Source: Negaprion brevirostris (taxonomy: Eukaryota). From it: a stretch of 63,538 nt of DNA. Of the stretch, positions 39,001-42,000 are shown piece after piece; the stretch's first letter is position 1, and every line of letters begins with the position of its first letter. The position numbers were made by a program. The stretch spans positions 48,740,246 through 48,803,783 of the forward strand of contig JARDVH010000115.1 in assembly GCA_030324005.1 (NCBI GenBank). Direction: 5' to 3'.

Positions 39001-42000
39001 CAGGGAATCCAATTGTAACATTATACTTAAAAGTAACTCTTGAGGCGGTGTGCTTGTTGTGTTACCTCAGCCGTTCAGGGTTCTTCAAAGTCAAATGTTA
39101 TTCATTATTTATAGTATAAAAATATAGAAATGAAATGCATTTTTTATCAGAAAACTTGATAAAGAAATAATCATTTTCATTTTTTAATTCAAATGATTTG
39201 GACCAGAGATAGGAAATTGTCCAACGGTGATGGTGCGATTGGATGCATTGCCCACTCCACATGTCTAAAGAGACTTAATGCAACTCTGTCTTTCAGATTC
39301 ATTTGTGTGTTACCTATGCACTGTGGCATCAGTTGCAGCTTCAGAGGCCAAATGTGGAATGAAGCAAAATCTACTGCTTTTCATGTTGGCTCAGGGCCAA
39401 AGGTAAGTCTGGGAAATAGATCTGGTTGATGACTCTAGTTTCACATGAATCTTGGAAGTTTCATCAATCAACTATTTGCTTCCGACCACCTTGTTCAGTC
39501 AGATATCCTTTCCCGCTCTACCACAGTGAACTTATAACCATCAAATCTATTCAAAATACATGAAAAACACACACCATTGTTTCATACCCCTGTGATTTTT
39601 CTCCTGGAATGTTTGCAGCAATGTTCAGGAGATTAATCTTTAATCCCTGGAGATACTGGGAGGATTATTGACAAGCCTAAAGGGAGAGATGAGTTAACAG
39701 AGAGGGAGCCGGTAGCAACTCGAAGTTTTAATGTGGATATAGGAGAAATAGTCCTAGTTCCACACTTGGGTAAGTGCAAATCTTTTGACTTAACCTTTGG
39801 CTAGTAGCTCTAGTCTCCTTTTTAAGATCCTTGATTTGGCTGCTGTGTGCCTGAGAAAACATATTGTAGCATGAGCAGCACATGTTGAACTCATTTGAAG
39901 CCCAATTTCACAAAGACACCTGAAAGAGATATAAGGCCCCTGATTTGCAATGGTAATGAACCTAATTCCTGCTTCATGCATATAAAAATCATTACACAGG
40001 ATAAAAGGGAATTTACACTGATTATTTGGAACAACTAATTTATGTTCATTACAAGTTAGGCAAGCATTGAAGCTAATTTATCAAATCAGGCATTATTTAG
40101 AATAATGTCATTTTCCATTCAAATATTTTGGGGATTTGGGAGGGAACCATATCAGAATCAAGTTAATAATAGCAAAATACACATTATAACAAATTTCAAC
40201 AAAATTCCCATAATTATGATCTATGCTTTGAAAGGATAAATGATTTGGTAAATATTTTCATGAATAACATCCTTTAAACATTTAGAGTTTATGAGCCCAT
40301 TATTTTCAGTGACAATAAACCCAAGTAGTTAAGTTCTGCGTGTAGTGGAATGTAAATACCAAATTAATGAATACACAAAGTCAACCCCATGCTATTCTCC
40401 TTCAACATCTCTGTTTTTTATCATAGAATCATAGAACCCTACAGTGCAGAAAGGGGTCATTTGGCCCATTGAGTCTGCACTGAATGCAATCCCACCCAGG
40501 CCCTACCCCCCAATCCCTACATATTTACCCACTAATCCCTCTAACCTATGCATCCCAGGACACCGAGGGGCAATTTTTTAGCATGGCCAATCAACCTAAC
40601 CCGCACATCTTTGGACTTTCTAGTCAAATGGGCCTATTCTTTTCTAGTTCTGCTCAAAATTACCCAGTTTTATCAAAAAAATTCTGCAATAATTTTTTCC
40701 TCCATGTACTATTTCCAAGGCTCTATTCGTAGCCCACTCCTATTTCTCATCTACATATTGTCCCTGCATGTCATCATCTGGCAGCACTCAGCTCCAACTC
40801 ACCACTATTTCCCTTGATTCCTCCAAGGTCTGTGTTGTCAAACTCCTTGCTTGACAGCTAGATCTATGTGTCTCATGATTCCCATCCCTTAAACATTTAA
40901 AAGATTGAAGTCATTGTCTTCGATCCCATCATAAACTCCATTTCTGAGTCACCAATTTTTACCCCTCTTGCTGGGCATGGTAATGGACTGAATCTNNNNN
41001 NTTTCAACCATGGATTCCTACATGGACTCTGAACTGAGCTTCTGACTCATATCCACGCTTTCAAAAATATCACTTTCATATCTCTCATCTCTGCCTCAAT
41101 TTAACTGCTGCTACAGCACCCTCATTTTTCTTACCCCTGCTGTCAGCTATTATGATACCCTTCTTAAAGGCATTCCATCTCCTAATCTCTTTAAAATCTA
41201 AGTTCACCTAAAACTCTGCTGTATTCCAATCTGCACAAAGTCAATTTAAGCTAACACTCCCAGCTCCTCACTTACATTGCCTCCTGTTCCACCAACACCT
41301 AATTTTAAAATGACCATCCTCATGTTTAAAATCTCATGAGCTTCCTCTTTCTATCTGTGTAACCTGATCCATCCAAGAACTCTAGGTATATTGACCTCTT
41401 ATCCAATCCCCTCTCATTTTGCCCCAACGTTGGCCGCAATATCTTTAGTTAACTGGAACTTTTGTATTAACCTTTCCGACTCCTTCTTGGCCTATTGACT
41501 AAGATCAAGTGTAGTTTTGCTGTGCTGCACTTGGTCAAAATGATGAGGTTACACTGAGGCTTAATTTGAAACAACTTTTTAAAGTGGCATCTAGGCCTTT
41601 TGGCTAAGATGCAAATAAGATCAATCCTTGGAGATGCAATGCCTGCTCCAATCAGCTTGAATCATGTAGATCAAGCCCCAGCCAGCCTGTCTTGTCAGCT
41701 TGGATTTGGAATGTCCCACTTGTTGAGACTTTACACTTTGATTGGATATAAACAAAAAAAAACTTTTCCAAATCTTCCCCCCGCCCCTCAAATGCTCCTT
41801 AAAACTCGTTGACCAGGCTTTCAGTCATCTATCCTATTGTCTCCATCTCTGTTTGCCTTGTGATGAATGCTCTCCTGTTATTTGCATGAGATGTTTTCAT
41901 TAATATTAACGGAGCTTTACAAATGCAAGTGATTGTTGTTATTACATACAATAACTGGTGAAAGCCACTTCCAAACTTTTATCAGGATTCCTAGCAGTCC

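What the first reader, a model, noticed from the sequence alone, without database searches (positions are those of the whole stretch)
41479..41760. Candidate U2 snRNA-headed SINE / non-autonomous Keno-Utopia-like retroposon in a shark
Seen: the element begins with U2 nt 1-37 (31/37; nt 5-37 30/33). U2 homology stops after GTGTAGT, inside the branch-point recognition sequence. About 230 bp of mostly non-U2 body and an A-tail follow. It is flanked by an imperfect direct repeat (AACCTTTCCG 41469-41478 / AACTTTTCCA 41761-41770, possibly extending to 14 bp) and interrupts an old L2 3' end. Established: Keno (Tx1 clade) and Utopia retrotransposons insert in U2 genes at about nt 37-38, and snRNA-headed SINEs (SINEU) were described in crocodilians. 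Inference: a short parasite inserted in a U2 gene is transcribed from the external U2 promoter, and the chimeric RNA is retroposed elsewhere. I know of no such family described from sharks, but cannot check repeat libraries.
Basis: partly seen in the sequence, partly recalled or inferred. Interest (0 to 1): 0.85.

Follow-up and report, generated by a model that had tools for sequence, protein, structure and literature searches.

The report
Two tandem U2-headed retroposed copies
This stretch holds what look like two old, short retroposed DNA copies lying head to tail, each starting with the first bases of the U2 spliceosomal RNA, which resembles the snRNA-headed SINEs known only from crocodilians, though whether it is a repeat family in this genome could not be checked.

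Summary
The U2 match is real. Window 41479-41515 aligns to U2 positions 1-37 (31/37). It is the only Rfam match with E<=1 in the whole window.

The "230 bp non-U2 body" is not one body. A second U2 5' piece (positions 1-27, 23/27, E=0.007) starts at 41584. The 11 bases just before it are a third copy of the flanking direct repeat, 9/11 to the 3' copy. Only 26 of 61,951 window 11-mers match that well. All of the non-U2 part of the first unit (41516-41574) aligns collinearly with the last 51 bases of the second unit.

I read this as two retroposed copies in tandem around one target site: E1 (41479-41574) and E2 (41584-41760). They share a tail, but U2 is joined to it at different points (U2 nt 37 versus nt 27/30). 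That favours capture of U2 snRNA by reverse-transcriptase template switching, as proposed for crocodilian SINEU.

Copy number in the genome, repeat-library status, the partner LINE and the shark origin could not be tested here.

The parts
41469..41478 (+). Target-site copy a (AACCTTTCCG; may include 41479). The top strand reads TATT|AACC at the inferred nick, a TT|AA-type site.
   Evidence: 8/10 (9/11) to copy c and 7/11 to copy b.
41479..41515 (+). E1 head: U2 snRNA positions 1-37.
   Evidence: 31/37 to the Rfam U2 consensus, 29 bits, E=8e-5; part of the only Rfam hit with E<=1 in the window.
41516..41574 (+). E1 body and tail (59 nt, ending GAAACAA). It is homologous end to end with the last 51 nt of E2. 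It contains the arm 41524-41536, which is complementary to U2 nt 25-37 of the head, and a C-box/D-box-like pair (ATGATGA ... CTGA).
   Evidence: collinear local alignment spans 41516-41574 against 41705-41755; 16 of 2000 shuffles and 11 of 1038 window chunks score as well. MAFFT gives the same layout; 13-bp stem.
41503..41536 (+). Hairpin across the U2/body junction of E1. Arms are 41503-41515 (U2 nt 25-37) and 41524-41536, giving 13 pairs (2 are G-U) and an 8-nt loop. The stem ends exactly at the last U2 base.
   Evidence: I2; in both the MFE and the centroid structure; a stem of 13 or more in 66 of 2000 shuffles and 9 of 216 window chunks. The significance is modest.
41573..41583 (+). Target-site copy b (AACTTTTTAAA), sandwiched between E1 and E2.
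   Evidence: 9/11 to copy c. It is the best of all internal 11-mers of the element (next best 7/11). 26 of 61,951 window 11-mers match c as well. Its position is fixed independently by the Rfam alignment start at 41584.
41584..41624 (+). E2 head: U2 positions 1-27 (41584-41610), a 5-nt filler (41611-41615), then a repeat of U2 22-30 (41616-41624).
   Evidence: 22.5 bits, E=0.007, 23/27; the 17-base core is exact, with 0.22 matches expected by chance. D1 and D6.
41625..41704 (+). E2-specific body (80 nt) of unknown origin.
   Evidence: no Rfam family at E<=10 apart from one chance-level hit; no significant likeness to either U2 head (91-371 of 1000 shuffles score as well).
41705..41760 (+). E2 tail (41705-41753, homologous to the E1 body) followed by the A-run, which spans 41754-41762. 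The last two A may belong to copy c.
41761..41771 (+). Target-site copy c (AACTTTTCCAA).

Best explanation
The locus holds two old retroposed copies in tandem, laid out as target copy a - E1 (about 96 nt) - target copy b - E2 (about 177 nt plus A-run) - target copy c.

Both units start at U2 snRNA nt 1 and both end in a related tail of about 50-59 nt that finishes ...AAACAA(A)n. The tail belongs to an unidentified poly(A)-ended source RNA, either a short non-autonomous retroposon or the 3' end of its LINE.

Each unit was made by target-primed reverse transcription with an L1/Tx1-type enzyme. The supporting features are the A-tail, the 10-11 bp target duplication and the TT|AA nick site. After copying a shorter (E1) or longer (E2) stretch of the source RNA, the reverse transcriptase switched template to U2 snRNA and ran to its capped 5' end. 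That gave heads of 37 and 27/30 nt.

The second insertion went into the A-tail/target junction of the first, so one target copy sits between the units.

In kind this is a SINEU-type, U2-headed retroposon. Kojima (2015) described recurrent 5' addition of U2 pieces and tandem copies sandwiching a target duplication for these elements.

Shown here: the U2 pieces, the three repeat copies and the shared tail. Inferred: template switching, the order of events, a Tx1-type partner, and that this is a family beyond these two copies.
For: 1. There are two separate U2 5' ends, each starting at model position 1. Each is closer to the U2 consensus (31/37 and 23/27) than to the other (19/27, my count). They share no derived base, as expected for separate captures.

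2. The 11-mer directly 5' of the second head is a copy of the flanking repeat. It is 9/11 to c and the best of all internal positions; the window-wide frequency of such a match is 26 of 61,951.

3. The whole non-U2 part of E1 aligns collinearly, start to end, with the 3'-terminal 51 nt of E2. 16 of 2000 shuffles and 11 of 1038 real window chunks score as well. MAFFT gives the same layout independently.

4. The two U2/body junctions differ on both sides. This is what independent template switches give and what a single master copy does not.

5. A-run and TSD statistics.

6. Both units contain T4 runs, so pol III transcription is unlikely. Kojima argues the same for SINEU (PMC4494074, Discussion read).

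7. Precedents:
- SINEU families show recurrent 5' addition of U1/U2 pieces, tandem SINEU-3 copies sandwiching a TSD, poly(A) tails and TSDs of about 10 bp (PMC4494074, Results read).
- U1-U6 snRNAs form 5' chimeras with LINE-1, in sense orientation and with TSDs (PMC13174262, passages seen).

8. If the window is chondrichthyan, Tx1 is the available poly(A)-type machinery. The whale shark paper states there are no full LINE-1 copies but that Tx1 is present (PMC8455134, passage seen).
Against: - Only one locus was seen. No third copy of E1, E2 or their tail exists in the window, so 'family' rests on two adjacent units.
- The tail homology is modest (p about 0.01) and needs several gaps. An earlier alignment with stricter gap costs was not significant over the bodies (140 of 1000 shuffles). 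The end-anchored tail test (2 of 1000) used a stretch I picked after seeing the alignment.
- Copy b agrees with copy a at only 7/11, and its 3' half (TAAA) departs from both flanks.
- E1's A-tail is very short (AAACAA).
- The order of the two insertions cannot be read from the repeat copies: a-c is 9/11, b-c is 9/11 and a-b is 7/11.
- Head 1 ends within one base of the Keno/Utopia site, which the template-switch model treats as coincidence or as a result of the hairpin pairing.
- No LINE with this tail was identified.
Confidence: 0.5

Rival explanations
1. This is a single composite, dimer-like SINEU-type element with the reader's boundaries (41479-41762), retroposed once into this site. The inner U2 piece, the inner A-rich stretch and the inner target-like 11-mer would be relics of a tandem master copy formed elsewhere. 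Family growth would then have been by recurrent 5' addition.
For: - The outer repeat a/c is as good (9/11) as b/c.
- SINEU-1D is described as a dimeric family, and tandem SINEU-3 copies were once catalogued as a subfamily (PMC4494074, Results read).
- One transcript running from U2 nt 1 of the first head to the A-run would need only one insertion here.
Against: The inner 11-mer would then come from another locus. Its 9/11 match to this locus's flank (26 of 61,951 by chance) would need strong target-site specificity, for which there is no other evidence here.
Confidence: 0.22
2. A short non-autonomous Keno/Utopia-like element sits in a U2 gene at nt 38/39 and is transcribed from the external U2 promoter. 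The chimeric RNA, U2 1-37/38 plus the element, is then retroposed to other sites.
For: - Head 1 starts at U2 nt 1 and ends at nt 37.
- The Utopia/Keno site leaves nt 1-38 upstream (PMC4640811, section 6 read).
- The Tx1 group that mobilises SINEU clusters with Keno, and one Tx1 family carries a U2 head (PMC4494074, Results read).
- Kojima also considers transcription of SINEU from upstream promoters (Discussion read).
- The 13-bp pairing between U2 nt 25-37 and the start of the body could belong to a junction structure of such a co-transcript.
Against: - The second head ends at nt 27/30, not 38.
- The body side of the junction also differs: E1 begins where the last 59 nt of the shared tail begin, while E2 carries 80 nt more.
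- No U2 sequence follows either tail.
- No master copy, PSE/DSE element or Keno-like 3' end could be examined.
Confidence: 0.1
3. This is a one-off chimeric retrocopy that did not propagate. It would have been made in a single event with two or more template jumps, or made once and then partly duplicated in place by slippage between the short repeats, with later deletions.
For: - snRNA/LINE chimeras are usually independent events that do not propagate (PMC13174262, passages seen).
- A tripartite chimera ascribed to double template jumps is reported from Magnaporthe (PMC2104539; title and start of abstract seen only).
- No other copy exists in this window.
Against: - A single multi-jump event does not explain a target-site copy between the two U2-headed parts.
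- It also does not explain why the part after the first U2 piece repeats the 3' end of the whole.
- In-place duplication needs a duplication followed by two different deletions.
- Absence from a 63.5-kb window says little about copy number. My own arithmetic: one further copy would be expected only for a family of roughly 50,000 or more copies in a genome of a few gigabases.
Confidence: 0.13
4. This is a decayed full-length U2 gene or U2 retropseudogene of about 189 nt (41479-41667).
For: Rfam aligns 41479-41667 to the whole U2 model, positions 1-192, at 39.5 bits. The span matches the length of the model.
Against: - The score is below the gathering score of 46.
- 29 of the 39.5 bits come from positions 1-37.
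- The middle (41512-41596) and the rest (41612-41752), searched alone, give no U2 match at E<=10.
- The model's stem III region is aligned to what is plainly a second U2 5' end.
- Even decay cannot leave 84% identity in 37 bases and none elsewhere.
Confidence: 0.03

Closest known systems
SINEU-1 / SINEU-3 of crocodilians (Kojima 2015, PMC4494074)
   Same: - Short non-coding retroposons whose 5' end is a U2 (or U1) snRNA 5' fragment.
- They carry a poly(A) tail and TSDs of about 10 bp.
- They contain oligo-T runs that argue against pol III.
- They show repeated addition of U2 pieces at the 5' end and small partial duplications inside the U-derived part.
- Tandem copies sandwich a target duplication.
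- SINEU-3's U2 head is 32 bp, close to the 27/30 and 37 nt seen here.
   Different: - This is a different host (reported as a shark, unverified), and SINEU was found only in crocodilians in 2015.
- No sequence comparison with SINEU consensus sequences was possible.
- The flanks are not known to be Mariner-N4_AMi.
- Family status is unshown here.
- The tail carries a stretch complementary to U2 nt 25-37, which is not mentioned in the sections I read.
snRNA/LINE-1 chimeric retrocopies (U6/L1 type; PMC13174262, with earlier work cited there)
   Same: An snRNA in sense orientation is fused to the 5' end of a variably truncated poly(A) RNA. The insertions are flanked by TSDs at a TT/AA-type site. 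The junctions are independent, explained by template switching or RNA ligation.
   Different: - In those chimeras the 3' partner is a recognisable LINE-1 or Alu, U6 is full length, and events are scattered singletons.
- Here the partner is unknown, U2 is cut to its first 27-37 nt, and two such copies sit together.
Keno (Tx1 clade) and Utopia, U2-gene-specific non-LTR retrotransposons (PMC4640811)
   Same: They are linked to U2 at nt 38/39, one base from the end of head 1. The Tx1 clade is the inferred machinery.
   Different: Those are protein-coding LINEs found inside U2 genes with U2 nt 39 onward at their 3' side. Here there is no ORF, no U2 3' flank, a non-U2 target, and a second head that ends elsewhere.

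Membership tests
SINEU (snRNA-headed SINE, Kojima 2015) | The 5' region is derived from U1 or U2 snRNA. | tested here: met
   U2 positions 1-37 (E=8e-5) and 1-27 (E=0.007).
SINEU (snRNA-headed SINE, Kojima 2015) | Short (<500 bp) non-coding retroposon with a 3' poly(A) tail and target-site duplication. | tested here: met
   9-A run and an 8/10 (9/11) direct repeat. E1's own A-tail is only AAACAA.
SINEU (snRNA-headed SINE, Kojima 2015) | Multi-copy family with a shared 3' region. | tested here: inconclusive
   Two adjacent units share a tail (p about 0.01). There are no further copies in 63.5 kb. No genome of the source was available.
SINEU (snRNA-headed SINE, Kojima 2015) | Sequence likeness to SINEU-1/2/3 consensus sequences beyond the U2 part. 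| not testable with these tools
   No Repbase or Dfam copy was available. The paper's figures and supplements are not held.
SINEU (snRNA-headed SINE, Kojima 2015) | Shared target preference with Tx1-Mar LINEs (Mariner-N4_AMi). | not testable with these tools
   The flanks have no other copy in the window and no library to name them.
   Head 1 ends at nt 37, which is compatible. Head 2 ends at nt 27/30, which is not.
   No LINE consensus or genome was available. No LINE-like ORF was found among the 10 longest of the 87 window ORFs of at least 90 aa that I scanned.
snRNA/LINE chimeric retrocopy by template switching | A sense-oriented snRNA 5' part is fused to a variably truncated poly(A) RNA, with a TSD and a TT|AA-type nick site. 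| tested here: met
   two different truncation points of the shared tail, TSDs, and TATT|AACC at the 5' junction.
snRNA/LINE chimeric retrocopy by template switching | The 3' partner is identifiable as a LINE, SINE or mRNA 3' end. | not testable with these tools
   Rfam gives nothing for 41612-41752. No repeat library was available.
U2 snRNA gene or full-length pseudogene (RF00004) | Reaches the Rfam gathering score and keeps the U2 3' half (Sm site, stems III and IV). | tested here: not met
   39.5 bits against 46. There is no U2 match in 41512-41596 or 41612-41752.

The most novel reading that the evidence does not exclude
This locus is the visible tip of a chondrichthyan family of U2-headed retroposons mobilised by Tx1-type LINEs. 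That would be the first SINEU-type family outside crocodilians. In this reading the element's own tail carries a stretch complementary to U2 nt 25-37. That stretch base-pairs with U2 snRNA and so sets where the reverse transcriptase jumps, which explains a head ending at nt 37. New copies would also preferentially re-enter the A-tail/target junction of older copies.
Probability: 0.25. Interest if true: 0.7.

Novelty: new member of a known kind. Interest (0 to 1): 0.45.

Why it matters
snRNA-headed SINEs are known from one vertebrate order. How they acquire their heads and how they are transcribed are both open questions (PMC4494074, Discussion).

A second, very distant lineage with the same architecture would show that U2 capture by Tx1-type machinery is recurrent. 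Many copies with different U2/body junctions would give a direct way to tell template switching from co-transcription out of a U2 gene.

If instead these are two isolated chimeric retrocopies, the locus is an ordinary by-product of LINE activity.

Tried and rejected
- **U4 lead.** From memory, 41519-41590 seemed to resemble the 5' part of U4 snRNA (K-turn stem-loop). Rfam gives no U4 match at E<=10 in 41512-41596, only C/D-box snoRNA families at E 5.5-9.2 and snoR160 at E=6.5. I did not type a recalled U4 sequence, so there was no direct alignment, and I dropped the lead.
- **U2 stem IV likeness.** The apparent likeness at 41626-41667 in the full-length alignment is not supported when 41612-41752 is searched alone.
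- **Further decayed U2 heads inside E2.** Not significant: 91 to 371 of 1000 shuffles score as well.
- **Other copies in the window.** No other copy of the element, of E1, of E2 or of a two-tail profile was found. The best blastn E is 0.46. The best nhmmer E is 5.5 for E1, 18 for E2 and 2.8 for the tail profile.
- **Other copies of the host flanks.** None at E<=1e-3. nhmmer and blastn found only the flanks themselves plus chance hits. The 23-mer of the flank's 3' end occurs once.
- **tRNA-derived head.** None in 40000-43500.
- **Tandem repeats.** None in 41000-42300.
- **Fold of the whole element.** z = -2.09, with 7 of 200 shuffles as stable. This is weak.
- **Likeness of the host target to the U2 Keno site.** I counted this by eye only, after the fact, and do not rely on it.
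- **Literature.** They found no U2-headed SINE reported from sharks, rays or chimaeras. The whole-word search for 'SINEU' returned 23 papers (21 listed), none on cartilaginous fish. This library does not hold Repbase or Dfam entries.
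Full report
**Scope and limits.** Only the 63,538-base window, Rfam, Pfam and the paper library could bear on this finding. Paper supplements and figures were not available. This matters for Kojima's Fig. 1B and supplementary alignments, which show how long the U2 heads of the SINEU families are. 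Nothing in the window was taken for human. The 13 runs of N were left alone.

**The observation.** Rfam's U2 model (RF00004) matches 41479-41667 at 39.5 bits. That is below the gathering score of 46, so nothing is listed at gathering. It is nevertheless the only match of any of the 4227 families with E<=1 in the whole window (E=1.9e-4).

In the printed alignment, 41479-41515 pairs with model positions 1-37 at 31/37 identical letters. No residue aligns to positions 38-46. The head alone, cut from its context, gives 29 bits and E=8e-5.

The flanking repeat is 8/10 (9/11 with one more base). Both mismatches are transitions and one is in a CpG. Pairs of window positions 282 bases apart do as well in 0.07% of trials with no slack, 2.6% with +-3 bases of slack on both sides, and 15 of 1702 trials placed after A-runs. 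The A-run is 9 bases. The inferred nick lies in TATT|AACC, a TT|AA-type site.

The "body" contains a second U2 5' end. 41584-41610 aligns to U2 positions 1-27 (23/27; 22.5 bits, E=0.007 when 41580-41775 is searched alone). Its 17-base core is an exact match to the head consensus, where 0.22 such matches (up to 3 mismatches) are expected in the window. A 5-base filler and a repeat of U2 22-30 follow (D6).

The two heads are each closer to the U2 consensus (31/37, 23/27) than to each other (19/27 by my count). They share no derived base.

The 11 bases that directly precede the second head (41573-41583) match the 3' flank copy at 9/11 and the 5' flank copy at 7/11. The start of that head was fixed independently by the Rfam alignment. 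This is the best match of any 11-mer inside the element (next best 7/11). Only 26 of 61,951 11-mers elsewhere in the window do as well.

Just before this inner copy the sequence ends ...GAAACAA. The whole element ends ...TAAACAAAAAAAAA.

**A shared tail.** With gap costs that allow short indels, the complete non-U2 part of the first unit (41516-41574, 59 nt) aligns collinearly with 41705-41755, the last 51 nt before the A-run of the second unit. The alignment runs from the first base of the first-unit stretch to its last. 16 of 2000 shuffles and 11 of 1038 real 59-nt window chunks score as well. MAFFT on the two units with their flanking repeat copies gives the same layout: repeat copy, U2 head, an extra stretch of about 84 columns in the second unit only, tail, repeat copy.

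Results that count against this should be stated. With stricter gap costs the body-to-body local score was not significant (140 of 1000). The end-anchored tail test (2 of 1000) used a stretch chosen after seeing the alignment.

**Reading.** The simplest account has two retroposed units, E1 (41479-41574) and E2 (41584-41760), around three copies of one target site. The second insertion went into the A-tail/target junction of the first.

Both units are a U2 5' fragment joined to the 3' end of the same unknown poly(A) RNA, but at different points on both partners. In E1, U2 nt 37 is joined 59 nt from the end. In E2, U2 nt 27/30 is joined about 131 nt from the end.

Different junctions are what independent template switches (or RNA ligations) produce. 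That is how snRNA/LINE-1 chimeras are explained (PMC13174262, passages seen). It is also how Kojima explains the recurrent 5' additions of U1/U2 pieces in SINEU (PMC4494074, Results and Discussion read). That paper further reports tandem SINEU-3 copies sandwiching a TSD, poly(A) tails, TSDs of about 10 bp, a 32-bp U2 head in SINEU-3, and oligo-T runs that exclude pol III. Both units here contain a T4 run.

If the host is a cartilaginous fish, a Tx1-type enzyme is the likely machinery. The whale shark genome paper says chondrichthyans lack full LINE-1 but have Tx1 (PMC8455134, passage seen). This step is inference.

Section 6 of PMC4640811 (read) states that U2 downstream of Utopia starts at nt 39, that nt 1-38 were expected upstream, and that Keno has identical 3' flanks. 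Head 1, ending at nt 37, fits within one base.

The second head does not fit, and the body-side junctions differ as well. No U2 sequence follows either tail. A single master copy in a U2 gene cannot give both units. I keep the model as a minor rival, for E1 alone.

**A curiosity at the E1 junction.** U2 nt 25-37 of head 1 (41503-41515) can pair with 41524-41536 over 13 contiguous pairs, two of them G-U, with an 8-nt loop. The stem ends exactly at the last U2 base and is in both the MFE and the centroid fold.

A stem this long occurs in 66 of 2000 dinucleotide shuffles and 9 of 216 window chunks, so it is only modestly unusual. The homologous stretch of E2 keeps just the core of it.

If real, it suggests that the tail RNA base-pairs with U2 snRNA and that the pairing sets the jump point. 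This is speculation and is kept to the novel case.

**Rejected readings.**
- *Decayed full-length U2 pseudogene.* 29 of the 39.5 bits lie in the first 37 bases. The middle and the remainder give no U2 match at E<=10. The model's stem III is aligned to what is a second U2 5' end.
- *U4 resemblance in 41519-41590.* This was recalled from memory and got no support from Rfam.
- *tRNA-like head.* None found.
- *Tandem repeat.* None detected by TRF.

**What remains open.**
- The "L2 3' end" host could not be tested.
- Whether the two units belong to a family is open. The window holds no third copy. By my own arithmetic, that is expected unless the family had roughly 50,000 or more copies in a genome of a few gigabases.
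- Six answered literature searches found no U2-headed SINE from cartilaginous fish. Kojima (2015) states that no SINEU was detected outside crocodilians. Uncurated library entries could still exist.

**Verdict.** The U2 head is real. The element is better described as two tandem U2-headed retrocopies of SINEU type than as one Keno-like parasite transcript. If a family exists, it is a new member of a known kind. If not, it is an ordinary pair of chimeric retrocopies. Interest 0.45.

Noticed in passing
window 25455-26753 (-): An open frame of 432 aa carries the Forkhead_N, Forkhead and HNF3 C-terminal domains (E = 3e-14, 1.4e-38 and 1.1e-29), so it is a FoxA-type gene. The U2-headed element lies about 14.7 kb on its 5' side.
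   Followed up: partly
window 25710-26690 (+): A 326-aa open frame lies antisense to the FoxA-like frame and has no Pfam match. It is probably a by-product of the codon composition of the opposite strand.
   Followed up: no
window 41537-41569 (+): A C-box-like ATGATGA and a D-box-like CTGA lie 7 bases apart, closed by a short stem (TCAAA / TTTGA), inside the E1 tail. Only chance-level C/D-box snoRNA matches were found (E 5.5-9.2; snoR160 E=6.5). The E2 tail has a gap or mismatches here.
   Followed up: partly
window 41606-41639 (+): There are small local duplications around the E2 head/body junction. AGATGCAA occurs at 41606-41613 and 41632-41639, and TTGG...AGATGCAA aligns between the head and the body. 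The match is not significant (91 of 1000 shuffles). It recalls the partial duplications Kojima notes inside U-derived parts.
   Followed up: partly
window 41905-41945 (+): The 3' end of the host flank ends in ...AAATGCAAGTGATTGTTGTT, a short TTG-type repeat tail of the kind seen at CR1/L2-like LINE 3' ends (that comparison is recalled, not tested). It occurs once in the window.
   Followed up: no
window, 13 runs of N (for example 10089-10243, 27166-27313, 32272-32522): The 13 gaps or masked stretches total 1018 bases. The two nearest the element are 40996-41001 and 42206-42242. None touches the finding. They were left as they are.
   Followed up: no
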